DNA from: a virus
Strand: one strand, 5' to 3'
DNA: 64,000 bases
Virus record (IMG/VR): IMGVR_UViG_3300020731_000015
Location: 1-64,000 of that record
The number at the start of each line of letters is the position of its first letter. The stretch's first letter is position 1. The position numbers and the translations under genes were made by a program. Below, piece after piece: positions 1-57,256 of this stretch. The notes under the pieces are model-generated. The model had not been told where the DNA came from. It worked only from the letters and a program-made list of their open reading frames with translations, and ran no database searches.

Positions 1-3000
1 TTCCACGGCAATCAATACACCCTCGGTATGGGCGGAACAACACCAGACGGTCGTTCATATGAGAAGTTGGAAGCAAGGGCTAAGGAAATCGCTAAGGAAC
101 TCGGCTACGGCGATTATCCAAAGTTTGCTGAAAACCTCGTACGAGTCGCTGCCAATTCCAAAACCCTAGCGGATTACGCAGGAGTGACTGAATCTGGTCG
201 AGGACACCTCAAACTAGCCAATCTGGTCTTTGACCGTATTGGGAACAACGAACCACCAAAGGTTCTATCCCAGAGTGAGTTCGACAAATACCGAAGCAAA
301 CTCCCACCACTCTTTACCGGAATCTCTACGCACCGTTCACCAGCCGAAGACAAGATTGCCGACTTCGCCTATGGCAAGGGAGTCAAAATCGGGGCGGGTG
401 CTTTTGGTCGCGCTTGGTATTCGACCACCAACGCCGAGAACGCCCAATACTACGCTTCATCAGCCCACAATGGAGAAGTTGATGGGGGCGTTATGAAACT
501 CAAACTCCAAGCAGATTCCAAAGTCCTTGATTACAACAAGGCCGTAAAAGCCCTCAACAACGCAGAGAGTAAAAGCGCCGACATCCTCAAGAACATAGAT
601 GCCGTTGCTGAAATGCTTTCGGCGGGCAAGCCACAACTCAAGGACATAGCCGAGACAGCAGCACAAACGATTGTGGCTGGCGATGAAAACATACGTCTAG
701 CGATGATGGGCGTAGATGCCCTAACAGCCAAAGTAGAAGAGAACGGCAACTCCTATGTGATGATTCTCAACCGAGGCAAGTTAGTTATGAGCGACACCTA
801 CGACAAGGTATCGCCAAGCGGCCTAGAGTCAAAACCAATACCTGCCGAGCCAAGTGATGTAATCAAGGGCGATAAGCCCGGTCACGAGTTTCACGGGAAT
901 CAATGGGTAATTCACGGAACCGATGGGGCGATTCTTCAGCACCAACGAACCTTTAAGGAACTATGGGAAGCACGAGGGCAGTTCCAATGGAAAATCTATA
1001 GCCAAATCCGCGATAGGGCTAACGAATCAAGAGAAAGCAACCAGATGTCTTTTGAGGGAAATATAAAGATGCTGGTAGCGCACGACCTCACACAGAAACT
1101 AGGCACGAAGTTTGATGACCGCCTCGTTGATAGTGCAGAGGTTGACCAAGTAGGAACATTCAAGGAGTTTTTAGCAACTCTTGGCAAAAACGATTTTGTC
1201 AAAGTATCTAGCCCCGGAGAGTTTGGCGGCAAGACCTCATATGACGGATACATCACCCAAATAAAAACCGACTCATTTAGCAATAAAACGCCGGCACAGC
1301 AATACAAGGATTATGTAAAGGGTCTAAAGAACGGAACGAGCAGTCCGCTAGAGCCTATCTTCAGAGCAACCGACCCCGCCCTTACCGATGCCGTTAGACA
1401 AATGAGCGTATCTAGAATCCTCAACGAGTGGGCGCAAACATCAAACGATGGCAACCCAACCTCGCTCGCTATTCAGCAAGCCGTAGCCGACCAATTCGGG
1501 CTCGAGAACACGGCAAGTTGGAAAATGTTGCCAGAACTAAAGAAAGCCGTTTCTAGCGAATATGAGAAGAACGGTGACTTGTATCGTGCGCTCGCAAAAG
1601 CCCAATACAAGAACACCCAAGACACGCTCAAAAAAGAGGGAATCAAAGATGTCCAAGTCTTTCGTGGCTACAAGTTCGCTAAGGGCGAAGAACCAAAGTG
1701 GGCTAAGAAATACGGCCTAGCGAATGTCAGCACACGGCCACTTTCGTCATTCGCTTCAGACTTCGCACAAGCCGAGAAGTTCGCTTTCCAAGCACAAACG
1801 ATTTTTGTGCCGGGTGCGAAAGAAGAGTTCCAAAAAGAAGACCTTTCCAATATTCACGGTGCTGTTATCACGGGCATAGTTCCAGCCAACAAGGTATTCT
1901 CACTCCCCTCGACAGGATTCGGTTGCTACAAGGAAAACGAAGTCACATTGTTGGGCGATACCCAACAATGGCAAGTAATCACCTCACCCGACCAATGGAT
2001 GGAAGTCGCACCACGACCCAAAGACGAAGACTTCGAAAATATTACCGAGAACTCAATTATCAAGGGCGAATCGGCAGGACACCCGTTTCGAGGTAATCAA
2101 TGGGAAACAGGAGAGGGCGATTCACCAATCTCGTTTATCCAAAGGAACATCAAAGAGTTCTACGATGCGGGCGGAAAGATAACAGTTGTATCGGGCGATA
2201 GAACTTCCGCTATCCAAAAAGTCAATGACGAAATCACCAAACTAAAGAAAAAAGAATACGAGAGTATGCCGAAACGCCAACAGTTAGGTATAGACCTAAT
2301 GGGTGCGGCAGTTAAAGATGTAAAGGGGAAAATCTATGACGAAGACCCAGACATCAAGGAGTGTTATCTACTTGTTGCTAGAGACAAGGATAAGAACCTA
2401 GCGGCAGTAGTGAGCGTCAGCGTAAAGGAAACGGAAAAATACGGAAACTATGTTGATGTCGGCTATTTGGGCTCAACAGGGAAAGTGCCGGGCGCAGCAA
2501 CGGCTATAGAAGAGCAAATTGCACAAATCGCAAACGATAGAGGATTGCCAGTTCAATCCAAATACATACCTGACTCAAAGCCGTATCACCAACTATTAGG
2601 TCGGTCACTAGAACCCGACAACAAGTGGTCGAAGTGGAACGAAGAACAGGCCCGCCAAATTGCGGCCCTAGAAAATCCAAAGGCACGAGTTCTAAAGGGC
2701 GAATCAGAGGGGCATCAATTTCACGGAAACCAACGGACCACAGGCGAAGCCGGTCACGCCAACACCTCGGTTATGGAAGAGGGCGTAATAGGCGACCTAA
2801 CCAAACTCTTTGGCAAACCAGATGGTCGTATACTCGGCTCTATGACACAGATAGATAACGAAGACTGGCTCAAATACAACTCGTGGGATTTATACCGAGT
2901 AGGCAAACTCATAACCACCTTGCCAGACCTACTCTGGTCACTAGGGGTATCAAACGGCACAACCACCCAGCAACTCGACGCCGTAGAGAACTTTACTCAC

Positions 3001-3066
3001 CTACCAGTTTGGAACGCCGCGCCACAAACACTCAAAGACGAAGTATCTAACTTCCTAAAGGACTAG
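1..3066 (+). CDS. 5'-truncated tagged polyprotein: ART-like domain, R-S-E ADP-ribosyltransferase-like domain, GNAT-like domain, unknown C-terminal domain
   Basis: Frame is open from base 1 (FHGNQYTLGM...). GHxFxGNQ tags at 1-18 (partial), 865, 2062 and 2695 delimit the segments. Segment 1: GAGAFGRAWYSTT..AQYYA..GVDAL..YVMILNR. Segment 2: VFRG..LSSF..KENEV. Segment 3: YLGS..GAATA..PYHQLLG. Confidence 0.75.
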   Translation, partial: FHGNQYTLGMGGTTPDGRSYEKLEARAKEIAKELGYGDYPKFAENLVRVAANSKTLADYAGVTESGRGHLKLANLVFDRIGNNEPPKVLSQSEFDKYRSKLPPLFTGISTHRSPAEDKIADFAYGKGVKIGAGAFGRAWYSTTNAENAQYYASSAHNGEVDGGVMKLKLQADSKVLDYNKAVKALNNAESKSADILKNIDAVAEMLSAGKPQLKDIAETAAQTIVAGDENIRLAMMGVDALTAKVEENGNSYVMILNRGKLVMSDTYDKVSPSGLESKPIPAEPSDVIKGDKPGHEFHGNQWVIHGTDGAILQHQRTFKELWEARGQFQWKIYSQIRDRANESRESNQMSFEGNIKMLVAHDLTQKLGTKFDDRLVDSAEVDQVGTFKEFLATLGKNDFVKVSSPGEFGGKTSYDGYITQIKTDSFSNKTPAQQYKDYVKGLKNGTSSPLEPIFRATDPALTDAVRQMSVSRILNEWAQTSNDGNPTSLAIQQAVADQFGLENTASWKMLPELKKAVSSEYEKNGDLYRALAKAQYKNTQDTLKKEGIKDVQVFRGYKFAKGEEPKWAKKYGLANVSTRPLSSFASDFAQAEKFAFQAQTIFVPGAKEEFQKEDLSNIHGAVITGIVPANKVFSLPSTGFGCYKENEVTLLGDTQQWQVITSPDQWMEVAPRPKDEDFENITENSIIKGESAGHPFRGNQWETGEGDSPISFIQRNIKEFYDAGGKITVVSGDRTSAIQKVNDEITKLKKKEYESMPKRQQLGIDLMGAAVKDVKGKIYDEDPDIKECYLLVARDKDKNLAAVVSVSVKETEKYGNYVDVGYLGSTGKVPGAATAIEEQIAQIANDRGLPVQSKYIPDSKPYHQLLGRSLEPDNKWSKWNEEQARQIAALENPKARVLKGESEGHQFHGNQRTTGEAGHANTSVMEEGVIGDLTKLFGKPDGRILGSMTQIDNEDWLKYNSWDLYRVGKLITTLPDLLWSLGVSNGTTTQQLDAVENFTHLPVWNAAPQTLKDEVSNFLKD

Positions 3067-3073: not shown

Positions 3074-3574
3074 ATGGAAACCATAGAGCAAGCAATAGCC
3101 CTATGGCTACGAGTAATCAAAGGCGATACTCAAGGACACGAGTTTCGGGGCAACCAATACACAGAGGGGGGAGAACACACTTCCCAACCAGCCCAATACC
3201 TCGTATCGGCAATTAGCCGAGTTCTAGATAGATACAAGAAGAACGAAATCGGGGAAGAGGGCATAAAGCAATTCCTCGACAATCCCCAAACCCCCAAAGC
3301 AACGGCTATCGGCGTTCATAGGGGAATCATCTCGGCCCATAACCAAATCGCCAATCAAGTCATATTCGACGCCCCTCACAAAATCGCCGCTCAACGCCAC
3401 CAAGAAGCACTACTAGGGGCTCAACAAGTCATAAGGGCAATAGACACTAATCAACCAAAGGCCGCAATACAAAAATCCCTAGAGAACTATCTCTCCCTAG
3501 CCACCAAAGCAAACAAATCTTCCTATGAGGCAGATACCCTCTCACCCATAGAGGAAGACCTAACTAAACGCTAG
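3074..3574 (+). CDS. tagged putative head-cargo protein (W-leader plus GHEFRGNQY)
   Basis: METIEQAIALWLRVIK|GDTQGHEFRGNQY; helical His-containing remainder. Confidence 0.7.
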   Translation: METIEQAIALWLRVIKGDTQGHEFRGNQYTEGGEHTSQPAQYLVSAISRVLDRYKKNEIGEEGIKQFLDNPQTPKATAIGVHRGIISAHNQIANQVIFDAPHKIAAQRHQEALLGAQQVIRAIDTNQPKAAIQKSLENYLSLATKANKSSYEADTLSPIEEDLTKR

Positions 3575-20104: not shown

Positions 20105-20535
20105 GACTTTTACTAGAGGTAGATAAGAATGTCGGCAAGATTCGACTGGCTCGTGCCAACGAAGAGGGCTTCTTAGTTAGTCAGCGCGATATCGCCACTA
20201 TCGAGAACTCCGATACAGATGCGAACCGAGTAGCGGCACTCAAGGTAGCGAAAGTCTATGGCTGGGCTCAAGCCGATGAGTGGGGAACTAACGAAGACGG
20301 AACTATCAATTGGTGCTATGTAGAACCGACCCCAATCAAGATTTCGTTTGTCGGTGCTGATATCCCAAACGAACTCGCACTTGCCTACGCTAAGGCCGCC
20401 GATTACAAGGTCACATCAGTTATTGACCGAGAGCCGTTGCCTGACGAGGGCAAGATTGCCTTTACCTTTACGATTAACGAACCGCACGGCTGGTCATACG
20501 AGTCGTTCACAACCAACGAACCTTTCGATGTATAA
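20101..20535 (+). CDS. hypothetical protein
   Basis: Coupled ORF. Confidence 0.5.
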   Translation: MRLLLEVDKNVGKIRLARANEEGFLVSQRDIATIENSDTDANRVAALKVAKVYGWAQADEWGTNEDGTINWCYVEPTPIKISFVGADIPNELALAYAKAADYKVTSVIDREPLPDEGKIAFTFTINEPHGWSYESFTTNEPFDV

Positions 20536-36951: not shown

Positions 36952-37027
36952 TCCCCCTATCTACGACTAGGGTTTTCCAAAGTAGGGGATAGTATCTACC
37001 CAGAAACTTCCCCACTTGGAGGCCGCC

Positions 37028-41871: not shown

Positions 41872-43092
41872 ATGGAAAACTTTGCTGCTGAAATCGAATC
41901 TTGGGTCCGAATCGCTAAGGGCGGGCCGGGCTCGGGAGATACCCCCGGTCACGAGTTCAATGGAAACCAATACACCGACGCGAGTGGTGCTATCGCGGGC
42001 ATTTCCAAACTTCGTGGGCTTTCAGGAGAACTCAAGTCAATAGTTGATGAACTAAATGGCAAGTTTTACCCACAGGGATTTACGCTGCGAGCCAAACCAG
42101 CAGATAAGTACGACAAAGACAGAATGTATGGGGAAAACTCATATAGTTCTTTTGCGCGCTATGTCACCCCAGAGAAACTAAAAGAAACACAGAGCAAACT
42201 TGAGGGGTTGGCCGACCAAGTGGATTCTCTAGTTGCTGGAGTTCGCCGTTCAGCAGCCGTTCACTCGGACACATCACCCACGATAGACAAGTTTGGTGGA
42301 GGCGAGTGGAAACTCGGACAAGACGAAGTTGGTAAGCACTTTTTAGAAGCCTCTAAGTCGCTTGAGGCTTTATCAGACAACTTGCGTGGTGCGGCATCCA
42401 TAATGAGCCACTCGGCAAACAAGGCGGTTTCAGTCAAATCACCTCGCCCAATGGCGGATGATGGCTATCCTGCTTTCGGCTCTTCCGAACCAAAAGCCTT
42501 TGACGCCGTTAAAGGCGAGGATGTTCTATCAACGAAGTTGGCGATTTCACGCTATTCGGGTCACGAAAGCAGTTTGGGAGAACAAGTTGATGCGATTTCC
42601 AAACTCTTTGACAAGTCGGAACTATCGCTTTCTCGTGCGGCTATCGCTATAGCGAAAGACCCCTCAAAAGAACCTAACGAGGCAAAGGCCGCTTCTGATT
42701 CAGCCAAGTTCGAGTCGAAGTCAAAGGAGTACACTGCTTCTGCTGATGCTATGGAAAAAGACATTGAGGCTAAGTACGATATGGTCAAAAAAGACTATGA
42801 CCTCGATGAAGACGGTAGGCCTATTCGTTATGGCCCCCAACACTCGGAAGAACTAGATGAATACGAAGAGGCAAAAGACAAGCAAGATGTCGTTCTCTCA
42901 CGCGCCAAAGTAGCGGCGGTATCGGCTAGTAATGCCTACTCTGTAATGGCTCACTTTGCTTCGCAGCGTGGCGACACCGAAGCCGCCAAGCAAGCGCAAG
43001 AAAAAGCCAGCGAAATGCTGAAAGTGGCGCGCTATAGCGAATCTCGCTGGCCAGATGCGGTCAATCATTACGATGACTACGATGGCGAATAA
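41872..43092 (+). CDS. tagged putative head-cargo protein
   Basis: NFAAEIESWVRIAK|GGPGSGDTPGHEFNGNQY (41917). Confidence 0.75.
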   Translation: MENFAAEIESWVRIAKGGPGSGDTPGHEFNGNQYTDASGAIAGISKLRGLSGELKSIVDELNGKFYPQGFTLRAKPADKYDKDRMYGENSYSSFARYVTPEKLKETQSKLEGLADQVDSLVAGVRRSAAVHSDTSPTIDKFGGGEWKLGQDEVGKHFLEASKSLEALSDNLRGAASIMSHSANKAVSVKSPRPMADDGYPAFGSSEPKAFDAVKGEDVLSTKLAISRYSGHESSLGEQVDAISKLFDKSELSLSRAAIAIAKDPSKEPNEAKAASDSAKFESKSKEYTASADAMEKDIEAKYDMVKKDYDLDEDGRPIRYGPQHSEELDEYEEAKDKQDVVLSRAKVAAVSASNAYSVMAHFASQRGDTEAAKQAQEKASEMLKVARYSESRWPDAVNHYDDYDGE

Positions 43093-45396: not shown

Positions 45397-45444
45397 TTTA
45401 TCAACTGTGGTCTATTATCTATAACGAACGCAAGGGAGTTGCCT

Positions 45445-46866
45445 ATGTCTGATGAAATCCTCAACGCCGCATCCGAATGGATTGGCTCTGTGAACAAGGG
45501 TCTTTACGGCGCACTCTTTAACGAGTCGCTCACCTTTGGTCAGGACAATGCCGCTAAGGCCGAGTCACTCTACGCAGTTGCCCTCACTGCTGAAATGGCT
45601 GGCGACAAGGCTAAGGCGACTAACGCCCTTATGACTGCTTCGCAACTCCACCTCACTTCTGCCGACTACTACTTACGCGCCTCTTCTTACGGAACGATTG
45701 AGCGCACCCAACTACTCGCCCTCTCACAAGAACAAAATGCACTCGCACAAAAGGCGATTGAGGCCGTTCATCTTCTTGAGAACACTCCTGCTGAATCAAC
45801 TACCGATGCTGGTCTTGATGGCGTGACCGTTGATGAGGCCGACACTTACCCTATTGATACTGCGAACAACCTAGATGCCCGTGACCACGCACCCGACCTG
45901 CCAGATATGTATAAGTCAGTTGGCGGGTTTGCTGAAATCGCAGAAGACGGCGTAGAGGTTTGGAACTTCGACATCGCAAAGGGTGACACACCCGGCCACG
46001 AGTTCCGTGGAAATCAATACACCGAGGGAACTGGAAAACTATCTGGCCGTGCTGATGATGTTGCCGATAGAGCAAATGACGAGGGTGCTAGCAAGTCAAT
46101 CGCTGCGGAACACAAGAGCATCGCTGAAGGACACAAGAGTATCGCTATGGAACTCGCTGACCAAGCAGCCGAAATGCCACTAACGCAAGCGGAAAAACCA
46201 CTTGTGGCAAAAGCCGCTATTGACAACTTCAAGGCTTTTATTGCTCACGCTAACGCCGCAGACGCACACGAAGAAGCGGCAAAAGCACTTGCGAACGACC
46301 CACACTCGGAGAGTGCGCTAGATGCTGAGGAAGCAGCACAGCGCACTAGCGATGATGCCGCAACTGCGAGCGCCGAGGCTCACGGGGGAACCTCGATTGC
46401 GGCCAATGCTGAAAAGGTTGCCCCAACAAGCACTAGTGGCACGACTACCCAAATCACTAGCGAGGCTCGTAGCAACCCCTCAAGCGTTAAGTACATCAAG
46501 CCAGTCAACCTTACGGCCGCTAACACCTTGCGTGAAAGGGCCGCAAGTCTCGCTTTGGAAACAGGGCGCACCGTGCCAAACCAAGCCTTCGTGCAAGAAC
46601 ACACTCAAATCGCTAAGGAACACACGAAACTTGCAAAGGCAAATGACAAGGCTGGAAATAGCGATATTGCCGAGGCCCACCGAGATGCCGCTCACGCACA
46701 CGAGGTTGCCGCTGCTTTTACTAAGGATGCTATTGGGGTTTCACCAGACGGAACCGACCAAAAGGCTATTGATGCCGAGCAGAAGAGCCAAGAGGCCTTT
46801 ACCGCTAGTGGTGAGGCCGCTCGTCTTGAGAGAGCCAATATTTTCCCCGACACTAGTTCTTACTGA
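45445..46866 (+). CDS. tagged polyprotein with His/Ala modules
   Basis: ILNAASEWIGSVNK leader; tag at 45979. Confidence 0.72.
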   Translation: MSDEILNAASEWIGSVNKGLYGALFNESLTFGQDNAAKAESLYAVALTAEMAGDKAKATNALMTASQLHLTSADYYLRASSYGTIERTQLLALSQEQNALAQKAIEAVHLLENTPAESTTDAGLDGVTVDEADTYPIDTANNLDARDHAPDLPDMYKSVGGFAEIAEDGVEVWNFDIAKGDTPGHEFRGNQYTEGTGKLSGRADDVADRANDEGASKSIAAEHKSIAEGHKSIAMELADQAAEMPLTQAEKPLVAKAAIDNFKAFIAHANAADAHEEAAKALANDPHSESALDAEEAAQRTSDDAATASAEAHGGTSIAANAEKVAPTSTSGTTTQITSEARSNPSSVKYIKPVNLTAANTLRERAASLALETGRTVPNQAFVQEHTQIAKEHTKLAKANDKAGNSDIAEAHRDAAHAHEVAAAFTKDAIGVSPDGTDQKAIDAEQKSQEAFTASGEAARLERANIFPDTSSY

Positions 46867-47156: not shown

Positions 47157-49148
47157 ATGAATATTGGCGACCGATTCAAGCCGGTTTACACCCCACGCAA
47201 CCAAGCATCTATTGATGCCGAGATTGCCAGCAAGCAGATTGCTAAGACTGCTCGTAGTGAGGTTGAGGCTATGTCAGCACTAGACAACGCTAACTTCCGT
47301 CTTCGTAAGGCTACAGAGTCTTTGAGCGAAGCACAGGTGGCTTACTTTGCCGCCGTTGAGAAGTCAGCAAGCAACGCTACTGAACTCCGTGCTGCCTACA
47401 ACAACGCACTTGCCGGATTCCGTGACAGCGAGAAAATCGCCGCTGTCGCTGCTGATGAGGTTCGCAAGGCTAAGGCCGCTCTCGCAGGTCTTCGCAAGAA
47501 GGCTTCTATGGAAGATGACTATGAGGATGACTCATCAGACGATGACTCATCAGAGTACGATGAGGATGAGAAGAAGAAGTCTTTTGGTGGCTCTAGCGAC
47601 CAAGAAGATGCTGCTGATGCTATGGCTGGCGATGACCCAGAGGGCGCAGTAAAGGTTCTTGACTCACTTGCCGACACCCACGAGCGCCTCGCAGGTATGG
47701 CTCGTAAGACTGGCAATATGGATGCTCACTCGGCTCACGCTGCTGAAGCCGGTCGCATTCGCTCAAAGATTGTTTCTCTTCGTGGCAAGGCCAACAACAA
47801 GGAAGTTGTAAAGTCTGCTTCAGATTTCATCACTAAGCGTGAGTTCTCTGACACCAAGCGCGCTCAACTCGCTGATTTGCTTGAAGACTGGAAAGTTTCT
47901 AAGGCTGCAATGTTGATTGTTTGCCCATCTTGTATGGGTGACGGTGGCTCGTGCTGTGAAAACGGAATGATTAGCCCCGATGACCTTTCAGACCACGTTC
48001 AGTTGGCAGACGAGATGCCAGTTGCTATGAGTGCTTTCAGCACCTCTTCGCTTCTGACCCGTGACTTCCAAAAGTCGGCCGCTTACCAAGAGTATGTCTT
48101 GGCTAAGGGTGATGTTGATGGTCACGAGTTCCACGGAAACCAGTACACCGCAGGTGGTGGCGGAAAGACTGCTCAAGTCGCTAGCAACTCGCAGACCGCA
48201 CCAAAGACCGATGCCGAGCGTTTGGGTAATGTCCCGGGCGCTAGCAAGGCACTACTCACTCAAGATGCGATAGACAAGTTCCAAAGTGGCAAGATTGACC
48301 ACAAGGCTTTGGCAAATGCTCACGATGCTCTTGCTGCTGCCCACCTTTCTGCCGCTAAAGAGGCACGGCTAGTTGGTGACAAGAAAGGTATCGCCCTCCA
48401 CATCGCCGCCGCCAACGCTCACCTTTCTGCCGCTACTGCCCACCTAACTGCAGACGGAGAGGGCTACGAGCCCTATGTTGACAAAAACGGTAATGAGGTC
48501 AAGACCGAGGGTATGTCATACGGCGAACTAGCCAACTTGCCAACCGCTTCAGACCGACTTTCAGCAAACGCCGCTGATGCTTCTAAGGCCGCAGACAAGC
48601 ACGATGTAGAGATGGAGCAGGAAACCGCTCAAATCACTAGCGAAGCCCGCACCGTTCCAATCAAGCCCGGCCAAGCCGCACAGACCCGTGACCCCAACTG
48701 GAACCCACGCACTAGTGGCGCGTTGATAAATATGCCAAAGGCGGGAACCCAAAAGGGTTTTAACACCATCGTTGGTGGCTACGAAAAGAACATTCCAGTT
48801 CAACTTGGACTCGCTAAGCAAGCAGAGGAAGAATCAAAGAAAGCCGTTGCTGATGGCGACCTTGAGACTGCCACTGCGAAGATGGAAGAGGCTGTGAAGG
48901 CTTATGAGGCCGCCGCCGGAAACGCTCGTGGAATCTTTATGATGCACGAGAAGTTCCAAGGTCAGGTCAAGCAGGCAAACCCTGAAGACCCAAAGGTAGC
49001 CGCTTTCCGTGAACAGGCTCGTTCTATTCGTGCTAACGAAAAGGCTTCGGCACAGGAAAAGGCTGCTGAACTTGGAAAGAAGTTTAAGGAACAAGAGGCC
49101 GCCAAAATCGCCGCTGCTAAGGATGCCCAGAAAATCGTAGGCGAGTAA
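47157..49148 (+). CDS. tagged polyprotein with many hydrophobic-x-K sites, Cys cluster and His/Ala modules
   Basis: AAGGA RBS; tag at 48105; CPSC..CC motif. Confidence 0.75.
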   Translation: MNIGDRFKPVYTPRNQASIDAEIASKQIAKTARSEVEAMSALDNANFRLRKATESLSEAQVAYFAAVEKSASNATELRAAYNNALAGFRDSEKIAAVAADEVRKAKAALAGLRKKASMEDDYEDDSSDDDSSEYDEDEKKKSFGGSSDQEDAADAMAGDDPEGAVKVLDSLADTHERLAGMARKTGNMDAHSAHAAEAGRIRSKIVSLRGKANNKEVVKSASDFITKREFSDTKRAQLADLLEDWKVSKAAMLIVCPSCMGDGGSCCENGMISPDDLSDHVQLADEMPVAMSAFSTSSLLTRDFQKSAAYQEYVLAKGDVDGHEFHGNQYTAGGGGKTAQVASNSQTAPKTDAERLGNVPGASKALLTQDAIDKFQSGKIDHKALANAHDALAAAHLSAAKEARLVGDKKGIALHIAAANAHLSAATAHLTADGEGYEPYVDKNGNEVKTEGMSYGELANLPTASDRLSANAADASKAADKHDVEMEQETAQITSEARTVPIKPGQAAQTRDPNWNPRTSGALINMPKAGTQKGFNTIVGGYEKNIPVQLGLAKQAEEESKKAVADGDLETATAKMEEAVKAYEAAAGNARGIFMMHEKFQGQVKQANPEDPKVAAFREQARSIRANEKASAQEKAAELGKKFKEQEAAKIAAAKDAQKIVGE

Positions 49149-49174: not shown

Positions 49175-51460
49175 GTGAACTACAAAGATATTCTCTCTAT
49201 CCTTAAGGCTGGCGTTGCTGGTCAATCTGGTGATAAAGACGGTCACGACTTTCGTGGCAATCAATGGACTGTTATGGGCCCTTGGGGTCAACCAGTTCCA
49301 CGACCCCGTGACCCAGCGACTAACAAGCCCCTAAAGGGCGCAGCGTTGGCTGCTGAATTGGCACGACTCTATCCGAGCCCGAACACGCCTATTCCAAACG
49401 CCCCTAAAACGACTGCCAAACCAGCCCCACCAAAGGTATCTGGCTCGACCCCTAAATCACCAAAAGCCCCCAAAGCACCAAAGGCTACGCCAGCACTCGC
49501 ACCAACCCCTACACCGGTCGCTACAACCCCTACAACGCCCCCTAAGCCCGTTGATGAAGCACCAAAGGCCGAAGCCCCAAAGGTAGAGGAAGTCAAGCCA
49601 GAAGAGCCTAAAAAGGTCGAGGATAACCGAGTTATCACGGAAGAGGGTCAGAAGTCTATTCAGGAACGAATTGCCGATGCTGAAAAGTGGGAACCCAAAA
49701 CTGATTTGGAAAAGCGGGCTTCCGAAGCCGCCTCGAAAATCGCCGCCGCAATCCTCGTTCCAAAAGAACGCCGACCCCTATTCGTAAAGAATCTCACTAC
49801 GGTTCTCACCCAGCCAAAGGCTTTTAGAGATGCCGTTGCACAAGCCAAAACCGTAGAAGTCAACGACCGTGTTAGAGACAACGCAGCGATGCTGAAAATG
49901 ATTGGCTTTACGGGTCTTCCAAAGGTCGTATCGGAAGCAGAGTTTAAGGCCACACCCGGCAAGGTCGCCTACTCTGGTCTTTCGTACACTCGGAGTTCTA
50001 CCCAAACACTTCAGCAGAAGTTAGCGACGCTTTACAACGGGGAGTTCCCACGCTACGGCGGTCCTATGTTCGGTGCGGCGTTCTACACATCCGAGAGCAA
50101 AGATGTGCCGGTTTCATACGCCCAAAAGAATGGGGCTAGTGGAACAAATACCTGTATCTTTCGCAACAAGTTAGTTGACCCCAACAATGTCTATAACGCA
50201 TCTGGCAACGGCCCAATGATTAAATTGGATGTCTTATCAGCAACGGCTAGGGAAGACCACGGCAAGTATTCGGCTATGGACCACCCTGACTACAATCTCC
50301 GAGAAATTATGTCGGATGCTGGATACACCGATGACGAAATCAACCGAATTGATGGCAAGGGAAGCCAGCAAGGTATCTTTAGTGGAGACAACAACTGTAA
50401 GAGTATCGGCCCAGCCCTAGCGGGATACGATGCGCTGAAAGATACCCACCACAACTACACAATGGTTCTAAATCGTGGGGCTATGGTCCTACCTGACACC
50501 TACGCAACCAATATCCAACATCAAGGTTCGTTTGGGCCAGAGGGAGCAGCAAATGTGTCTGACAATGTTCCTGTGGATTCGGCTTACGCAATCTCCGTGC
50601 CTACGCCAAAAGCACCCGAAGATGATGAGCAAGATGTCGCTAAAGGTGAATCTGACGGACACCCTTATCGTGGCAACCAATATGGGCCGGGCAAGAGTGA
50701 TGGCACTCCTGAAAAGCCAAAGCCACTACCCGGGTCTGAAGAAGAAACGGAAGAAGTAGTAAAGAAACTCACCGAGGATATGAAGTTGCCTCCTGCTGTT
50801 ATCCGTATGGGTATCCAAGTAGCCCGACCACTTCTCGCAGAAGCCGCTAAATACGAACCGGCTATCACCAAAGCGATTTCTCAATCCGTAAAAGAGAGTG
50901 GCGGAACTCGAAAGCGCGCTCAATCTGCCGTAAAGTCACTCTCTAGTGCTACCGAAAAGGCGGTTAGGGATACCGCCGATTCTGTCCAAAAGGGCTTGAC
51001 TGCTGAAATCACATCTAACTCCCTTTCCAAAGAAGCCGGAGAAATCCACGACCTCGTTCGCTATACGGTTATCTGGCCACAAAAGGAAATAGCAAGCGGC
51101 GCGAACAAGATGATACAGAGCCTCGCCAATAAGGGCTTCGTTCCATACAAAGACGAGAACGGCACGGAGATGGTGAAAAACTACTTCCACGATAGGCCGG
51201 GAAACTCATACCGAGGCATCAATGCCAACTTCGTTGACCCCAAGAGTGGAATGGTCTTTGAGGTTCAGTTCCACACACTCCAAAGCCTTGATACTGCTGA
51301 AAAGATGCACAAAATATATGACAGTATTCGCAAACTAGATAAGACCGACCCAGTTTACGAAAAGGGGCAGGAAAAGATGCGAGCGGGCTTCGCACAGGTA
51401 AAAATCCCACCGGGAATTGACTCGGTTGGAAATGTCTGGTTCAAGAAGGCTATAATTTAG
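49175..51460 (+). CDS. tagged polyprotein: ART-like domain plus RelA/SpoT-like (small alarmone synthetase) domain
   Basis: Tags at 49205 and 50642; GLPKVVS..FGAAFY..GYDAL..MVLNR; KSLSSATEK..HDLVRYT..YRGIN..FEVQFHT. Confidence 0.8.
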   Translation: MNYKDILSILKAGVAGQSGDKDGHDFRGNQWTVMGPWGQPVPRPRDPATNKPLKGAALAAELARLYPSPNTPIPNAPKTTAKPAPPKVSGSTPKSPKAPKAPKATPALAPTPTPVATTPTTPPKPVDEAPKAEAPKVEEVKPEEPKKVEDNRVITEEGQKSIQERIADAEKWEPKTDLEKRASEAASKIAAAILVPKERRPLFVKNLTTVLTQPKAFRDAVAQAKTVEVNDRVRDNAAMLKMIGFTGLPKVVSEAEFKATPGKVAYSGLSYTRSSTQTLQQKLATLYNGEFPRYGGPMFGAAFYTSESKDVPVSYAQKNGASGTNTCIFRNKLVDPNNVYNASGNGPMIKLDVLSATAREDHGKYSAMDHPDYNLREIMSDAGYTDDEINRIDGKGSQQGIFSGDNNCKSIGPALAGYDALKDTHHNYTMVLNRGAMVLPDTYATNIQHQGSFGPEGAANVSDNVPVDSAYAISVPTPKAPEDDEQDVAKGESDGHPYRGNQYGPGKSDGTPEKPKPLPGSEEETEEVVKKLTEDMKLPPAVIRMGIQVARPLLAEAAKYEPAITKAISQSVKESGGTRKRAQSAVKSLSSATEKAVRDTADSVQKGLTAEITSNSLSKEAGEIHDLVRYTVIWPQKEIASGANKMIQSLANKGFVPYKDENGTEMVKNYFHDRPGNSYRGINANFVDPKSGMVFEVQFHTLQSLDTAEKMHKIYDSIRKLDKTDPVYEKGQEKMRAGFAQVKIPPGIDSVGNVWFKKAII

Positions 51461-51678: not shown

Positions 51679-51716
51679 GGTAAAGTATCGGGAATCCTAG
51701 TTTGGAAAGGCCCGTT

Positions 51717-52604
51717 ATGACTTCGGACATCAATGCTGAAATCTTGGCGTGGGTCCGACTAGCAAAGGCTGGCGATACCAAAGGTCACGCTTTTCACGGC
51801 AATCAGTATCAAGAGGGCGAGAGTGGTGGCGAAGCCCCAGCCCGACAGGTAGATTCGAGTCGCTATCAGGCAAATGGTCGCTACGGAACTGCTGAAACCA
51901 CCGAATCAATCAAGCCGACAGTTGCCGAAAAGCCAAAGCCCGCCGAACTTCCAAACCACGACACCCGCATAAAGAGCGACCCAGCCGATACCTCTCCAAA
52001 AGGCATAAAGAATTGGGCTCGAGAAATCCACTTCGCGCTCACTCGTGGCGAGCAACCCATTATCTCCGCCCAGCACTTCCCCGCCTTGATTGCTGAAATG
52101 GCCCGAACGAACTCAAAGGGCAACGACATAACCAACATCCGTATTGACGGAACTCGCCTTATGGGATTAGACGGAAAGGGCTACTCTCGCAGCAAAATGC
52201 CCCAAATTGACGAGAGCGAACGCCCCCAATTCCTAAAGGATATTGAGAAGTCAGACGGAATCACCGTAAAGCCAATGTCCGTTGACCCCACGACCCTAAA
52301 GCCAATCCAAAAGGAAATCAACGGCGACAAGTCTGGGGCGATTATGAAGAAGAACCCAGATGGTATTCCCGACAATATGCGAATCTTGGTTTCCAAAGAT
52401 GGTTATGTAGTGGATGGACACCACACTTGGGCCGCTGCCGTTGCGCTGAAATTGGCAGGAAAGTCGGCTCAATTCCCGGTCTATCAACTCTCCTGTGACT
52501 GGAAGAAAGCGATGGATGTCGGCCTCGCTTGGGATAAGGAACACAATGTTCCCCTACAAGGATTTGATACCAAGCCACCGGTTTTATCAAAATCCGTGAA
52601 ATAA
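51717..52604 (+). CDS. tagged ParB/Srx-fold protein
   Basis: INAEILAWVRLAK leader; tag at 51765; LKPIQKEI..ILVSKDGYVVDGHHTWAA. Confidence 0.78.
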   Translation: MTSDINAEILAWVRLAKAGDTKGHAFHGNQYQEGESGGEAPARQVDSSRYQANGRYGTAETTESIKPTVAEKPKPAELPNHDTRIKSDPADTSPKGIKNWAREIHFALTRGEQPIISAQHFPALIAEMARTNSKGNDITNIRIDGTRLMGLDGKGYSRSKMPQIDESERPQFLKDIEKSDGITVKPMSVDPTTLKPIQKEINGDKSGAIMKKNPDGIPDNMRILVSKDGYVVDGHHTWAAAVALKLAGKSAQFPVYQLSCDWKKAMDVGLAWDKEHNVPLQGFDTKPPVLSKSVK

Positions 52605-52611: not shown

Positions 52612-53019
52612 ATGACGAACGCATCAGATTTCAGCAGAGGCAATTTGCTTGGCCCAGATGGGGTTTATCGTGAGTTCATCAAGGGTGATTTCTCTGGCCA
52701 CGTCTTTCGTGGCAACCAGCACTCGGTCGGTGGCGTAGGTCACTTCGACCCTTGGCGCGCAACCCTAATGACTATCTGTGCTTCGGGCCACCAGAACACC
52801 ATCGGCGTTCCCCCAACTTGGATTGAGCGTGATGCTCAAGGTAAGCCAACTGGTCAGTTCACGGCGGGAACCCAGAGCCGTATGTGCGCTACTTGTTCCA
52901 AACCTCTACCTAACCGTTGGAAGTTGATAAACGGACAGAAGTTTATTCAGCCCGACAAGCAACCCGTGACGAGCGCAAACCAATGGCTTTACGGTGGAGT
53001 AAAGAACTATGTCAAGTAG
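52612..53019 (+). CDS. tagged small Zn-ribbon protein
   Basis: FIK|GDFSGHVFRGNQH (52681); CASGH..CATC. Confidence 0.65.
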   Translation: MTNASDFSRGNLLGPDGVYREFIKGDFSGHVFRGNQHSVGGVGHFDPWRATLMTICASGHQNTIGVPPTWIERDAQGKPTGQFTAGTQSRMCATCSKPLPNRWKLINGQKFIQPDKQPVTSANQWLYGGVKNYVK

Positions 53020-56000
53020 TTTGGAAAAGCAAGTCTTCCAGCCGAACTTCGTAAAGTTCACCAACACGGAAATCGTTGACCGCAACCCTATTTCTGGCAC
53101 GACTTTCTTTGGAAACCAGAACAACGGCTTCCAACTCGTTAAGTTTGCTGATGGCTCTAACGGAGTTGAGAAGCGACTCAAGCATTGGGTCGGGAACAAG
53201 ACTGGTCGCCTCTATCGTGGCGAACTTCTCGGTGCGCAGGAATACCTAGCGGCTCGTGTGGGCGAAGTAATGAACGCCCCTATCCGTGACTGCCACTTCA
53301 CTAGCAAAGACGCACAGAGTATCGTTATGCCGTTTATTGATGGGCGCTCTGGTGCTGAAATGAACGATAAGGATATCCCCGACACTCCACAAGGAGTAGC
53401 CCTACGACTATTTGACTACCTAGTAGCCAACGCAGACCGACGCCCCAAGAATATTATGTTTGCTGATAACGGAAACATAGTGGGTATTGACCACGCCCTT
53501 TGTAATTTCCGGCCTCGTGAGCCTAAGCCAGAGTTGATTACTATCCTTTGGAACGGCGGAGTCACCCTAAGTAGTTTGGAAATCCTAAAGCCAAAACTGC
53601 TTGCTCTCGGTGGTTTGTTTTCCCAAATGGGTATGACAGAAAAGTTTGGAAACCTAATCGGCAACCTCGACCGATTGATTGCGGCTTTCACCAAAATCCA
53701 AAATATCGCGGTGGCTAAGGCCGCCTTTGACTCACAGACCCCACCACAAGCCGTTCAACAAGCAGCGAAACAGGCTTTGGAGTGGATAGCAGACGGCAAG
53801 GCTGGTAGGAACTTTACCTCGGTAGGTCGTAAAAGGGCTTCAGACCTCGCTCACGGACACCCAGTATCCCTAGAAACCCTAAAGCGTATGAAAGCCTACT
53901 TTGATAGGCACGGCGTTGATAAGCAGACCCCACATTGGAACGAGCCAAGCCCCGGCAAGGTGGCGTGGTATGCGTGGGGTGGAGATGCTGGCTACTCGTG
54001 GGCTAAGAAGATGGTCGCTCGTGCTGAAAAGGCCGCAGAAGCGGTCCGTAAAGATGCCGACACCGATAGGAAAAAAGCGGACGCGAAACTAAAGGAAGCA
54101 GAAGCACTAGCGGCAGAAGCCTTTGATTTTCGCCGTAGGGAACACTTTGAGTCGGCCGCCAACGCTCACGCCAATGCCTCACGCTTATTCTTTGAGGCTT
54201 CCAAACTCTACGGAAATGACGAGAATGGTGATGCCGTAAGCGCACTCGCTAGGGGAAACTCGGAGAAAGACCTAGCCGAATCCGCCCGATTTACAGACCA
54301 GATGGGCGAACAACACAGTCCTGCTGAAATCCACGATGGAACTTGGGTGGATGGGGGTGCTTGGGCTGGCGGAACCGACCCGGTGGAAAAGGGAGATGTC
54401 GTAGGACACGAGTTCCACGGGAATCAATGGACCGGAGATGAATACGACTTCAATAAGGATTCTTACGACCACAATGCTTGGGGTTCGCCACTCAAGTATG
54501 ACTCTTGGACAGGGGCAACGACCGAAGACAAGTCAGAAAAAGTTGGTGATTATGTCTTTAATTCTAGGTTGCCTAGTAGCGAATACATCGCTTATATGAA
54601 GTCGCACTTTTCATACAACAACATACCAACGCCAGACAAACTAACCACTAACTGGAAAGATGAAATGGCGAAAGCACGGAGTAAGTATGTCGTTAGTGAT
54701 GTATGGGCTACGAAAATAAACGACAAATTGCGAAAAGACAAAGCACTTAGCCCCAAGCAACAAACGGAGTTTGAGGCCGTAAAGAAATGGGCCGAGTCAG
54801 AAACGATTATCAAACCGGTATCGCTATACCGAGTGTCTATCTTGCCTGATGCTGTTTTGGACAAACTGCAGCCCGGAACTTCCTACTTGGAAAAAGGATT
54901 CCAATCCACTTCCATATCACCATCAGATATGATTAATTACGGAGTATCCCGAAGATTGGGTGGGGATACCCATACGGCTATTAGCGGCAATAGGGTTTAT
55001 TTTAGGCTCAACGCACCAAAGGGAACGAAAGCCGTTGACGCTTACTCGGAAGAAGTGGTATTGCCACCCAACACGCAAGTTTCAGTCACTAGCCGAGCAA
55101 CCGACAAGATGGGTAATACCTACATCACGGCAGATATCAATAATAGCACGGAAGTCAAAAAGGGCGACTCGCCCGGTCACGAGTTTCACGGCAATCAGTA
55201 CGAGGCAGGTATCGTTTCCAAACTAGATGCTGGCGAGAGCCCCGAAATCGCTTCTGCTGATTTGCCCGGTCTGGTTTCTGGCATCCACGACTTAGGTTCT
55301 CGTGGTCACGGATACGACATTACGAACCTAAAAGTTGATGGAGAAAAGCCTTTCCAAACTGACCACGATGCTGATTTGCTTCGTGAGCATATGCCCCAAA
55401 TACTCCCAAGCCAACGAGCAGAGTTCCTCAAGGATATTCAGAGCGAATACGGAATTGTAAGCAAGGCAGAAGAGGTCAACCCCAAAACCCTAAAGCCCTC
55501 ACAAACAGAGATTGATGGTTGGAAGACGGGTGGCGTTTATAAGGAGTTTGCTGAAAAGGGCATACCCGCCGAGCGCGCTCCACTCGTTTCTAGCGACAAC
55601 TACATTATTGACGGACACCACTATTGGTCGGCGGCAATCGCCCTAAAAGCCGCAAACCCCGACTACAAACTCCCTATTCGCCGTTTATCCTGCGACCTAG
55701 ACACGGCACTAAAGGTTGCTAACCAATGGCACGACAAGGTTGGCAACCCACGCCTATCGCTGGGCGATACCCAAGTTTCCAAATCAGGAGTAGCCGGACA
55801 ATCTGGTGATAAAGAGGGCCACGCCTTTAGAGGCAACCAATGGTGGATGATGGGGCCAGACGGAGTTCCAGTTCCACGCCCTCGAGCACCTAAAACCGAT
55901 ACGGGAGACAAGACACCAGCGGCCCCTAAAGCCCCAAGGGTATCAACCCCACGCGCTCCAAAAGCCACGCCAACTGCTGAAACGCCTAAGCCTATCTACC

Positions 56001-57256
56001 AAGAAGACCTCAAAGTTCCATACGGCAAGGGAGTTATTCCGCCGGGCTGGAAGAAAACTGGCACGACTTCGGTAGTTATCCCGTCTAGAGATTGGAGTAA
56101 GCCGCCGAAGATAGTTAATTGCACAACCTTTTCTTCAGCAAAGGGCAACACCGCTATTATCGGCACAAGAGCGCGTGGGTGGAAGATAGGCGACCGATAC
56201 ACCAATACCGTCTTGATGACGATTGACAGATTTGCTACGGGAAAGCAAGTTGAGTTTGTTCACACTCTAAGACAAGGCGCGAACACCCTTGCTTCTGTCT
56301 CTTTGGGAAATCCAAACTCCCTAATGATTGGCCGCTATGGAATTATTGGTAGAGACTTAAAGGCGGGCATAGAAAAGTATCGCCCCAACTACCAAACAGA
56401 TGATACGACACCAGAGGCAATCAAGGCTCAAGCCGATTGGGATTCCCTAAAGGATACGGCAGTCGCACAGGCAAAGGGTGAAATCAACACCCAAGAGGGT
56501 CGTGATGCTTTGGATAAGGTCGAGGCAACGCTTCAGGCTACTGATAATTCCAATTTGGCTAAGGGCTTTACGATTGACAAGTTGGGCCGAACTTGGAACA
56601 CGGGCGACCTATTTATGTCCTCCCAACGCCGTATTGAGTCAACGATTATCCACGAACTAGGCCACTCCAACTTCTTTAGTGATGGCAAAAAAATAACCGA
56701 TGTAATCCCAGAACTCCAAAAGTCTTTGGGTAGCAAAGTAGACCTTTCTAAAGAAAACGAGAGCGGCAAAAGGGGTTTCGTAAGAAACATCAAGACCCCC
56801 GCCCTCAATTTCGGTGGAAAGACAATAGTTCCTAGAGGTGAAGTTAAAGACTTTCTAGATAAACACGAGCCCGGCATCTACCCTCTCTCGTTGGATACAA
56901 CGAAAGCCCTCAAAGCGATTGGTGGAACCAAATACGGAACGAGCAGTCTCCAAGAGTTAGGTGCTGAATCGTTCGCCCAATTCCAACTAGGGATAACCCA
57001 ATCGCCCATAACCCAAGCCTTTGCTACCTCTCTCGGCTGGCAACAGGCTGGAACTACGGTAGCCAAGTCTGGTAGCGTTGCTGATATGAGTCAATCCCAA
57101 TCCCCCAATGTTTACTACTCGCCAGAGTTCGGTGGGGAAGTCGCACGGGTATTCCTAGAGGATTCCCTTGATGGCCCACGCCTTGTGGTTGGTGATTCGG
57201 TGGAAAACTACGGCCACCCAGACCAGACTGACGACTCGACTGAAGACGAGGAATAA
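53009..57256 (+). CDS. polyvalent polyprotein: HipA/PI3-4-kinase-like, conserved AW..WGG domain, VIP2-like ART, ParB/Srx, zincin metallopeptidase
   Basis: FDYLVANADRRPKNIM..IDH; AWYAWGGDAG; LYR..GFQSTS..EEVVLP; IIDGHHYW; HELGH..ELGAESF; tags at 54389, 55160 and 55781. Confidence 0.82.
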   Translation: MSSSLEKQVFQPNFVKFTNTEIVDRNPISGTTFFGNQNNGFQLVKFADGSNGVEKRLKHWVGNKTGRLYRGELLGAQEYLAARVGEVMNAPIRDCHFTSKDAQSIVMPFIDGRSGAEMNDKDIPDTPQGVALRLFDYLVANADRRPKNIMFADNGNIVGIDHALCNFRPREPKPELITILWNGGVTLSSLEILKPKLLALGGLFSQMGMTEKFGNLIGNLDRLIAAFTKIQNIAVAKAAFDSQTPPQAVQQAAKQALEWIADGKAGRNFTSVGRKRASDLAHGHPVSLETLKRMKAYFDRHGVDKQTPHWNEPSPGKVAWYAWGGDAGYSWAKKMVARAEKAAEAVRKDADTDRKKADAKLKEAEALAAEAFDFRRREHFESAANAHANASRLFFEASKLYGNDENGDAVSALARGNSEKDLAESARFTDQMGEQHSPAEIHDGTWVDGGAWAGGTDPVEKGDVVGHEFHGNQWTGDEYDFNKDSYDHNAWGSPLKYDSWTGATTEDKSEKVGDYVFNSRLPSSEYIAYMKSHFSYNNIPTPDKLTTNWKDEMAKARSKYVVSDVWATKINDKLRKDKALSPKQQTEFEAVKKWAESETIIKPVSLYRVSILPDAVLDKLQPGTSYLEKGFQSTSISPSDMINYGVSRRLGGDTHTAISGNRVYFRLNAPKGTKAVDAYSEEVVLPPNTQVSVTSRATDKMGNTYITADINNSTEVKKGDSPGHEFHGNQYEAGIVSKLDAGESPEIASADLPGLVSGIHDLGSRGHGYDITNLKVDGEKPFQTDHDADLLREHMPQILPSQRAEFLKDIQSEYGIVSKAEEVNPKTLKPSQTEIDGWKTGGVYKEFAEKGIPAERAPLVSSDNYIIDGHHYWSAAIALKAANPDYKLPIRRLSCDLDTALKVANQWHDKVGNPRLSLGDTQVSKSGVAGQSGDKEGHAFRGNQWWMMGPDGVPVPRPRAPKTDTGDKTPAAPKAPRVSTPRAPKATPTAETPKPIYQEDLKVPYGKGVIPPGWKKTGTTSVVIPSRDWSKPPKIVNCTTFSSAKGNTAIIGTRARGWKIGDRYTNTVLMTIDRFATGKQVEFVHTLRQGANTLASVSLGNPNSLMIGRYGIIGRDLKAGIEKYRPNYQTDDTTPEAIKAQADWDSLKDTAVAQAKGEINTQEGRDALDKVEATLQATDNSNLAKGFTIDKLGRTWNTGDLFMSSQRRIESTIIHELGHSNFFSDGKKITDVIPELQKSLGSKVDLSKENESGKRGFVRNIKTPALNFGGKTIVPRGEVKDFLDKHEPGIYPLSLDTTKALKAIGGTKYGTSSLQELGAESFAQFQLGITQSPITQAFATSLGWQQAGTTVAKSGSVADMSQSQSPNVYYSPEFGGEVARVFLEDSLDGPRLVVGDSVENYGHPDQTDDSTEDEE

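What the first reader, a model, noticed from the sequence alone, without database searches (positions are those of the whole stretch)
1..57256. Putative peptide-tagged capsid-cargo system: 20 copies of K|GDxxGHxF(H/R)GNQ(Y/W) in 13 ORFs, each heading a different domain
Seen: the tag occurs at 1 (partial), 865, 2062, 2695, 3119, 37232, 38870, 39570, 40540, 41917, 43156, 45979, 48105, 49205, 50642, 51765, 52681, 54389, 55160 and 55781. Codons vary at synonymous positions, so conservation is at the protein level. Every complete copy follows hydrophobic-x-K (VIK, IIK, VLK, VTK, VAK, IAK, LAK, VEK) and sits at a boundary between unrelated domains. The main cluster starts right after the portal and XkdF-like protease genes. 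Established: T4 internal proteins use a short, protease-removed capsid-targeting sequence, and MuF-fused or polyvalent phage proteins carry ART, RelA/SpoT, ParB, GNAT and zincin domains. Inference: the prohead protease cuts these polyproteins after K, releasing about 20 proteins with a common N-terminal GDxxGHxFxGNQ tag. The tag could dock them in the head or route them into the host at ejection. No MuF domain is recognisable in the window, so this may be a MuF-independent, short-tag delivery system for an effector arsenal.
Basis: partly seen in the sequence, partly recalled or inferred. Interest (0 to 1): 0.96.

Follow-up and report, generated by a model that had tools for sequence, protein, structure and literature searches.

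The report
Header tag on phage head cargo
A freshwater phage puts the same 13-residue peptide in front of about 20 unrelated protein modules encoded next to its head genes; comparison with other phages suggests that the head protease cuts just before each tag, but no cut has been measured.

Summary
All 20 copies of (h-x-K)-GDxxGHxF(H/R)GNQ(Y/W) sit in 13 plus-strand ORFs at the stated places, and conservation is at the protein level.

The window is part of a 75-kb contig of an uncultured lake phage of about 125 kb. The main block of tags starts right after the portal gene and the XkdF-type protease gene.

The tag is widespread. It matches 2,133 protein representatives, with up to 9 copies per protein. 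It lies in head-gene blocks of complete phage genomes. No Pfam model, solved structure or searchable paper holds it. This scan had already met the same tag on other DNA (e1-5991013 and others).

New here:
- The residue just before GD is constant within a phage and switches with the head-protease family. It is K in 22 contigs (13 with XkdF, none with another protease). It is L or A in 11 contigs (none with XkdF, all with Mu-gpI-like or DUF2213 proteases).
- Positions P3 and P1 differ between these classes, while the tag core does not.
- One lineage starts its genes directly with M-GD.

Best reading: these are cargo polyproteins cut by the head protease before each tag, and the tag core is a separate N-terminal header whose reader is unknown. 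Cleavage, packaging and injection are all untested. MuF-independence is not general.

The parts
33299..34912 (+). Portal protein (Portal_Mu type). Its disordered C-terminal tail holds a V-K|G-D site without a tag core.
   Evidence: Pfam PF06074, E=8e-35; sequence; 51-52% identical to portals of Arthrobacter phages Kovu and Waltz.
35047..36951 (+). Head maturation protease ORF. It has a long N-terminal region with a poly-Ser tract and an XkdF-type (Peptidase_S78_2) domain at residues 496-614. A nearly invariant I-x-K lies just before the domain.
   Evidence: Pfam PF14550, E=1e-7; alignment A3 of 10 XkdF domains from tag-bearing phages.
1..3066 (+). Polyvalent ORF cut by the contig start. Tags at 1 (partial), 865, 2062 and 2695.
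3074..3574 (+). Single-module gene: 16-aa leader (ends W-L-R-V-I-K), tag at 3119, 150-aa module.
37016..39343 (+). Leader, 50-aa spacer, tag at 37232, 546-aa module, tag at 38870 (A-D form), 156-aa module.
   Evidence: phrog_13953
39330..40487 (+). Leader, DUF5872-like mini-domain (residues 35-78), tag at 39570, 304-aa module.
40492..41841 (+). Leader (17 aa), tag at 40540, 432-aa module.
41872..43092 (+). Leader, K, a GGPGS spacer, tag at 41917 (core from 41935), 385-aa module.
43099..45396 (+). Leader (20 aa), tag at 43156, 745-aa module of unknown family.
45439..46866 (+). 181-aa untagged first module, tag at 45979, 294-aa module.
47157..49148 (+). 317-aa untagged first module, tag at 48105, 346-aa module.
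49175..51460 (+). Second type of leader (I-L-K-A-G-V-A-G-Q-S), tag at 49205, 472-aa module, tag at 50642, RelA/SpoT-type (small alarmone synthetase-like) module.
   Evidence: PDB 8vx3, E=2e-10; Foldseek TM 0.75-0.78. In the AF2 model both tags lie in stretches with pLDDT below 35.
51702..52604 (+). Leader, K-A, tag at 51765, 277-aa module (phrog_2859). This module is paralogous to 55163-55804.
52612..53019 (+). Leader (24 aa), tag at 52681, 111-aa module.
53009..57256 (+). 1415-aa polyvalent ORF. It has a 461-aa untagged first module and tags at 54389, 55160 and 55781. There are weak ART and PI3/PI4-kinase-like matches.

Best explanation
The 13 ORFs encode proteins that are loaded into the procapsid. 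These are polyvalent-type effector enzymes plus modules of unknown function.

Each junction has two separable parts:
(1) A short P-side site, hydrophobic-x-K. It is read by the phage's own XkdF-type head maturation protease, which cuts between K and G.
(2) The tag core, GDxxGHxF(H/R)GNQ(Y/W), followed by a Gly/Ser-rich linker. After the cut it becomes the free N-terminus of the released module.

Stand-alone genes carry a third element, a leader of about 17 residues predicted to be helical (E-I-x-x-W-h-R-h-A-K). It is probably the part that brings the precursor into the procapsid, as the capsid targeting sequence (CTS) does for T4 internal proteins, and is then cut off at its terminal K.

The tag core does not change with the protease family. 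It is therefore read by something else or acts on its own, most plausibly as a handle for keeping or ejecting the released modules.

Shown here: the anatomy, the spread of the tag, its linkage to head genes, the co-variation of P3/P1 with protease family, and predicted disorder of the tags.

Inferred: the cut, the loading and the delivery.
For: (a) Position. In 194 tag-bearing database proteins, 190 have more than 60 residues after the last tag. In 88 the first tag lies within residues 6-40. Spacing is domain-sized, with a median of 214 aa.

(b) P1 within and between phages. In the IMG/VR loci the residue before GD is constant within a contig but differs between contigs: K 229, L 17, A 15, N 7, R 5, S 5, V 4, D 4, M 3.

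(c) Protease typing of 41 contigs that could be classed.
- K contigs: 13 of 22 have XkdF and 0 have another protease.
- L/A contigs: 0 of 11 have XkdF; 6 have Mu-like_Pro and 5 have DUF2213.
- Fisher p=4e-7, not corrected for phylogeny.
- No ClpP was found. There was no Peptidase_S78 match above the family cut-off, only one sub-threshold hit in G001.

(d) Over 891 distinct tag contexts, K and L/A classes differ at P1 (JSD 0.95) and P3 (0.46; V/I versus R/K). Every position from P1' to P14' has JSD of 0.10 or less.

(e) In an h-x-E|GD lineage (L279), the capsid-domain match of the major capsid protein (MCP) begins right after L-Q-E at residues 62-64.

(f) In L083, three genes start ATG-GGN-GAY (M-GD) behind Shine-Dalgarno-like sites. 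By the known specificity of methionine aminopeptidase this gives the same G-D N-terminus.

(g) A nearly invariant I-x-K precedes the XkdF domain. In G002 the protease domain is followed by L-A-K|GD plus a tag.

(h) In portals of G009 and G024 the tags sit between the portal and fused modules, where no targeting signal is needed.

(i) In complete genomes the tags lie in the portal-to-protease block.

(j) AF2 places both tags of ORF 49175 in low-confidence linkers between folded modules, and predicts the leader as a helix, though at low confidence.
Against: - No cleavage, packaging or ejection has been measured for any tagged protein. No cultured phage carrying the tag was identified.
- The co-variation rests on perhaps three to five independent lineages, so shared descent could produce part of it.
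- Nine K-class contigs show no protease. All but one of them are less than 70% complete.
- For the D, N, S, V and M classes no protease was found.
- This phage's capsid protein has no propeptide, so no known cut site in the same phage can be compared.
- h-x-K-[GA]-[DE] sites outside tags number 17, against about 12 expected by chance for all such sites.
- In four copies the K is displaced, so the exact scissile bond there is uncertain.
Confidence: 0.55

Rival explanations
1. The whole 16-residue motif is only an extended protease recognition and cleavage cassette. The core makes the junction accessible and is bound on the prime side by the protease. It has no role after the cut.
For: The tag always sits at junctions and after leaders. 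It is predicted to be disordered. XkdF, Mu gpI-like and DUF2213 proteases may share a fold, and so possibly a prime-side groove (from general knowledge, not tested here).
Against: The core does not vary across protease families, while P1 and P3 switch. The putative capsid-protein cut site in L279 has no tag. Genes in L083 begin with the tag and have nothing to cut off.
Confidence: 0.2
2. The tag is not cut at all. It is a short linear docking motif in flexible linkers that binds a head component (portal, scaffold, capsid interior) or DNA. The polyproteins stay intact, and the lineage-specific residues before it reflect descent.
For: The tag is disordered, short and highly conserved, like a binding motif. 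Some polyvalent proteins, such as N4 vRNAP, are known to be packaged uncut (PMC5512222). In 8 contigs of other P1 classes no protease was found.
Against: Within a protein only P1 and P3 are conserved, while the other upstream residues vary. P1 partitions perfectly with protease family wherever a protease was found. The M-GD genes and the header-only position suit a free N-terminus.
Confidence: 0.13
3. The motif processes itself, for example by Asn- or His-assisted peptide-bond cleavage as in some capsid proteins, without the head protease.
For: G, H, G-N-Q and a nearly invariant D are conserved in a flexible stretch. The core is the same whatever the protease.
Against: There is no folded context to hold a catalytic geometry. 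The P1/P3 co-variation with protease family would be left unexplained. No similarity to any known self-cleaving module was found in Pfam or PDB.
Confidence: 0.04
4. The tags are mainly recombination junctions that let modules be swapped between genes and phages.
For: Modules are shuffled among relatives. Contigs from three lake metatranscriptome runs carry an in-frame 375-nt shorter variant that ends exactly at the 38870 tag. Other contigs diverge from the window at the tags at 37236 and 40537/40577.
Against: Tags are only 64% identical in DNA, and half of the identical residues use different codons, which is too little for homologous exchange. Selection is clearly on the peptide. Shuffling at tags may be a consequence of their position, not their function.
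Confidence: 0.04

Closest known systems
Phage-type polyvalent proteins (Iyer, Burroughs, Anand, de Souza, Aravind 2017, PMC5512222)
   Same: They are strings of unrelated enzyme modules encoded beside portal and head genes, and are presumed to be packaged and injected. Relatives of these ORFs carry ART, ART-PolyVal, ParB, NUDIX, 2H phosphoesterase, GNAT and MuF domains.
   Different: That paper proposes processing by zincin-like metallopeptidases carried in the proteins. It does not mention this motif. Here no zincin domain was detected, and the junctions carry one conserved tag whose upstream residue tracks the head protease.
Capsid targeting sequence (CTS) of T4 internal proteins and Alt, removed by the gp21 prohead protease (general knowledge; review PMC9026906 was listed but not read)
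   Same: A short N-terminal leader ends at the head protease's consensus cut site, and the cargo is injected with the DNA. The leader E-I-x-x-W-h-R-h-A-K found here fits that role.
   Different: The protease family differs (XkdF-type rather than S77) and the cut is after Lys rather than Glu. The sites are internal as well as N-terminal. A conserved 13-residue tag remains on the product. T4 has nothing like it.
Extensive head-protein processing in phiKZ-like phages such as SPN3US (PMC10052503, PMC5694885; abstracts only)
   Same: Many packaged and ejected proteins are cut by one prohead protease during head maturation.
   Different: The protease family differs. From general knowledge, the cut there is after Glu at a three-residue consensus, and no conserved header remains on the products.
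MuF polymorphic toxins of temperate phages (Jamet et al. 2017, PMC5576092)
   Same: A head-associated carrier bears variable toxin modules, including RelA/SpoT-type pyrophosphokinases. The RSH-like module 50645-51457 matches the C-terminal part of a 'head morphogenesis' PHROG.
   Different: This contig has no MuF domain. That paper contains none of the junction or cleavage terms searched for. Here most carriers are short leaders, not MuF.
Encapsulin cargo-loading peptides (general knowledge)
   Same: A short conserved disordered peptide marks unrelated cargo for an HK97-fold shell.
   Different: Those peptides are usually C-terminal, are not cut, and have an unrelated sequence. No binding of this tag to a shell protein has been shown.

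Membership tests
Phage-type polyvalent proteins (Iyer et al. 2017) | Two or more unrelated domains in one phage polypeptide | tested here: met
   Seven ORFs hold 2-4 modules of 100 aa or more. Only 2 of the module pairs are homologous.
Phage-type polyvalent proteins (Iyer et al. 2017) | Effector-type enzyme domains (ART, RelA/SpoT, ParB and the like) | tested here: met
   An RSH/small alarmone synthetase fold is found at 50645-51457. The ART match is below the cut-off. Most modules match no family.
Phage-type polyvalent proteins (Iyer et al. 2017) | Encoded next to head-morphogenesis genes | tested here: met
   The block starts 65 bp after the protease ORF. The same layout is seen in the complete genomes G035, G019 and G002.
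Phage-type polyvalent proteins (Iyer et al. 2017) | Zincin-like metallopeptidase domain proposed to process the protein | tested here: not met
   No peptidase family was found in any of the 13 ORFs by Pfam or PHROGs. A diverged domain could have been missed.
T4-type CTS cargo | Short N-terminal leader ending at the head protease's cut-site consensus | tested here: inconclusive
   Leaders of 16-24 aa ending in h-x-K are present on 10 ORFs. That K is the protease's site is inferred from co-variation.
T4-type CTS cargo | S77 (gp21-type) protease cutting after Glu | tested here: not met
   The protease is XkdF-type and the site ends in Lys.
T4-type CTS cargo | Cargo is present in virions and injected | not testable with these tools
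   The phage is uncultured and no proteome is available.
MuF polymorphic toxins | N-terminal MuF (PF04233) domain | tested here: not met
   There is no match in the whole contig at E up to 10. The contig is about 60% complete.
Encapsulin-type cargo-loading peptide | C-terminal, uncut targeting peptide that binds the shell interior | tested here: not met
   The tag is N-terminal to its module in 190 of 194 proteins. Binding was not tested.

The most novel reading that the evidence does not exclude
The invariant core GDxxGHxF(H/R)GNQ(Y/W) is a universal N-terminal export header. Once the head protease, or Met removal, exposes it, a machine common to very different phages reads it to thread each released module out of the capsid into the host. 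That machine could be the portal or tail channel, the packaged DNA, or a host factor. This would be a protein-ejection signal comparable to a secretion signal, shared by phages with at least three head-protease families.
Probability: 0.25. Interest if true: 0.9.

Novelty: new variant of a known kind. Interest (0 to 1): 0.72.

Why it matters
How phages choose, load, release and inject accessory proteins is understood for only a few model phages. A single short tag shared by more than 2,000 protein families would have several uses. It would be a sequence handle for finding virion-delivered effectors, including anti-defence enzymes and toxins, in metagenomes. It would give a predicted cut-site code for three poorly studied head-protease families. 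It might also serve as a portable signal for loading foreign proteins into phage heads. The P1/P3 switch gives a concrete prediction that can be tested at the bench.

Tried and rejected
- Complex prediction of the XkdF domain (A3) with the tag peptide (A2) gave no answer (score 0.00). This is neither support nor evidence against.
The neighbourhoods of the E-class and E-F-class proteins could therefore not be read. Only L279 was recovered, through the search for related loci.
- megablast of the head block and tblastn of a 42-aa tag against 50,697 phage records found nothing, so no cultured carrier was identified.
- The closest isolates by portal (Arthrobacter phage Kovu and its kin) have no tag.
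- The Protein Atlas gave no usable hit for two modules. PDB sequence searches found nothing for four large ORFs.
- The portal family is not universal among tag-bearing phages. DUF2213-class contigs lack Portal_Mu, so 'the portal reads the tag' gained no support.
- In the scan of prokaryote genomes, 51 stretches matched the DNA pattern but only 16 of the 52 matches in them are real tags. My own estimate of the chance expectation is about 35. The tag is therefore rare in cellular assemblies.
- No protease was found in the 13.6-kb E-class contig.
- Parts of the cargo block without cover in the RNA-run contigs say nothing.
Full report
WHAT IS THERE

The window is bases 1-64000 of a 75,270-bp IMG/VR viral contig that CheckV rates about 60% complete. 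A complete relative with terminal repeats is 121 kb (G035).

The DNA recurs at 60% or more of sampled words in 13 lake or freshwater metagenome runs other than the likely source. These span 2012 to 2023, and 12 of the runs name separate studies. Near-identical contigs of six lake metatranscriptome libraries also hold parts of the cargo block. DNA carry-over cannot be excluded.

All 20 tags are present: 19 complete copies plus one cut by the contig start. They lie in 13 plus-strand ORFs. A degenerate DNA pattern for the core hits 18 times forward, never in reverse and never in the backwards control.

G-H, G-N-Q are invariant. The first G and the F are nearly so. Tag pairs are 65% identical in protein and 64% in DNA, and half of the identical residues use different codons. 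Selection therefore acts on the peptide.

After removing the tags, only 2 pairs among 25 modules are homologous.

ANATOMY

The main block (37016-57256) starts 65 bp after an ORF whose C-terminus is an XkdF-type serine protease domain. That ORF follows a Mu-type portal. Scaffold-like, decoration-like and capsid genes lie at contig positions 63.5-65.8 kb. The capsid protein has no propeptide.

Three elements can be told apart:
- The core GDxxGHxF(H/R)GNQ(Y/W), followed by a linker enriched in Gly, Ser, Thr, Ala and Pro (47% against a 38% background).
- A hydrophobic-x-K site directly before the core in 15 copies. In four copies it lies 1-7 residues upstream, so it is separable from the core.
- On ORFs whose first module is tagged, a leader of 16-24 residues. 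In six ORFs it reads (F)-x-x-E-I-E-x-W-h-R-h-x-K. A second leader type reads I-L-K-A-G-V-A-G-Q-S. The same leaders recur at the N-termini of many database proteins.

An AF2 model of ORF 49175-51460 predicts the leader as a helix, though at low confidence. It puts both tags in stretches with pLDDT below 35, between two folded modules.

The second module of that ORF has a small alarmone synthetase (RelA/SpoT) fold, close to an exported Streptomyces enzyme and to the T6SS effector Tas1. An ART match and a PI3/PI4-kinase-like match are below the cut-offs. Most modules match nothing.

HOW WIDESPREAD

- A profile of the tag finds 2,133 of 1.84 billion protein representatives at E of 1e-3 or better. 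Of these, 461 reach 1e-10. There are up to 9 tags per protein.
- The hits carry ART, ART-PolyVal, ParB, MuF, NUDIX, 2H phosphoesterase, GNAT, topoisomerase I, PARP and DUF3626 domains.
- The same pattern in 185,579 prokaryote genomes gave 51 stretches. Only 16 of the 52 matches in them are real tags, which is close to my own estimate of chance for the rest.
- In three complete genomes, most or all tags lie in the portal-to-protease block.
- No Pfam model matches any of the 19 tags at E up to 10. No PDB chain matches the profile.
- Text searches for the motif strings found no relevant paper. The polyvalent-protein paper does not contain the motif. The MuF-toxin paper contains none of the junction terms searched for.
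- This scan had noted the same tag on other genomes (e1-5991013 and others).

IS IT A CUT SITE?

The tag is a header. In 194 tag-bearing proteins, 190 have more than 60 residues after the last tag. In 88 the first tag lies within residues 6-40. Spacing is domain-sized.

The residue before GD is constant within a contig and differs between contigs. Distinct signatures exist:
- h-x-K
- [RK]-x-[LA]
- h-E-[FL]
- h-x-E
- F-x-H

| Class | Contigs | XkdF | Mu-like_Pro | DUF2213 |
|---|---|---|---|---|
| K | 22 | 13 | 0 | 0 |
| L/A | 11 | 0 | 6 | 5 |

- The 9 K contigs without a protease are mostly short fragments.
- Fisher p is 4e-7, without correction for shared descent. This is the main caveat.
- ClpP was absent throughout. 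There was no Peptidase_S78 match above the family cut-off, only one sub-threshold hit in G001.

Over 891 distinct contexts, the two classes differ at P1 (JSD 0.95) and at P3 (0.46; V/I against R/K). They do not differ anywhere from P1' to P14' (0.10 or less).

Four further observations point the same way:
- In an h-x-E lineage, the capsid-domain match begins right after L-Q-E.
- A nearly invariant I-x-K precedes the XkdF domain. In G002 a tag follows the protease domain.
- In G009 the DUF2213 protease ORF itself has a leader plus tag.
- In L083, three genes start M-G-D directly behind ribosome-binding-like sites. Met removal before Gly is well established, and it would give the same free G-D end.

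WHAT THE CORE DOES

The core does not change with the protease family. The putative capsid cut site lacks it. It also stands between portals and their fused modules, where no targeting signal is needed.

The core is therefore unlikely to be merely the protease's recognition site or the loading signal. The leader is the better candidate for loading. The core most likely acts on the released module, in retention or ejection. Its reader is unknown. The portal family is not shared by all tag-bearing phages.

VERDICT

- The cut after K is the best-supported step, but it rests on comparison only.
- 'MuF-independent' does not hold in general: 9 of 17 other tag-bearing contigs have MuF.
- Docking and injection are untested.

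The theme is known: packaged polyvalent effectors, and CTS-like leaders removed by a head protease. The tag, its spread and the protease-linked switch of P3 and P1 are, as far as these searches reach, undescribed.

Tools that failed or gave nothing are listed under Tried and rejected.

Noticed in passing
window 38485-38868: Contigs from three lake metatranscriptome runs carry a variant that skips 382 nt and has 7 other letters in their place. The net change is -375 nt, which is in frame. The variant ends 2 nt before the K codon of the tag at 38870. Other contigs diverge from the window exactly at the tags at 37236 and 40537/40577. This suggests module swapping at tags between strains.
   Followed up: partly
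window 35047-36951, residues about 199-280: The N-terminal region of the protease ORF holds very long poly-Ser tracts and an acidic, disordered stretch of about 490 residues before the XkdF domain. Its function is unknown.
   Followed up: no
window 34660-34700 (portal residues about 457-470): The portal's disordered C-terminal tail contains H-P-F-I-G-V-K|G-D-S-S-G-G. This is a K|GD site with an H-P-F remnant but no G-N-Q core. It may be a cut site that removes the tail.
   Followed up: no
window 58193-59071 and 59358-60410: A C-5 cytosine DNA methylase appears split. Profile positions 1-167 are in one ORF and positions 269-322 are at the end of the next ORF, about 290 bp downstream. It may be an insertion, a split gene or two different methylases.
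   Followed up: no
window 39432-39563 (ORF 39330, residues 35-78): A DUF5872-like mini-domain lies between leader and tag. It is 54-63% identical to small hypothetical proteins of Roseobacter phages CRP-207 and CRP-2, phage C72C1 and Synechococcus phage S-BM3.
   Followed up: partly
L009:12901-13401 and L009:13433-19270 (contig 68901-69401 and 69433-75270): A phage peptide deformylase gene is followed by a tail-fibre-like ORF of more than 1,946 aa with collagen-like repeats. That ORF runs off the contig end.
   Followed up: no
L185:12363-14621 (G009) and L189 (G002): In other phages the head protease itself is tagged. The DUF2213 protease ORF has a leader plus tag at residue 62. An XkdF domain is followed directly by L-A-K|GD plus a tag.
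   Followed up: partly
L181:8360-10795 (G024) and G029 19292-21841: Two complete 24-29 kb phages with terminal repeats carry their only tags in C-terminal extensions of the Mu-type portal, next to a Mu gpI-like protease. This is the smallest tag-bearing system seen.
   Followed up: partly
L199-L278: Relatives of the enzyme domains of the tagged protein P0039 occur in about 75 other viral contigs without any tag. The tag is therefore an add-on of particular phage lineages, not a feature of the enzyme families.
   Followed up: no
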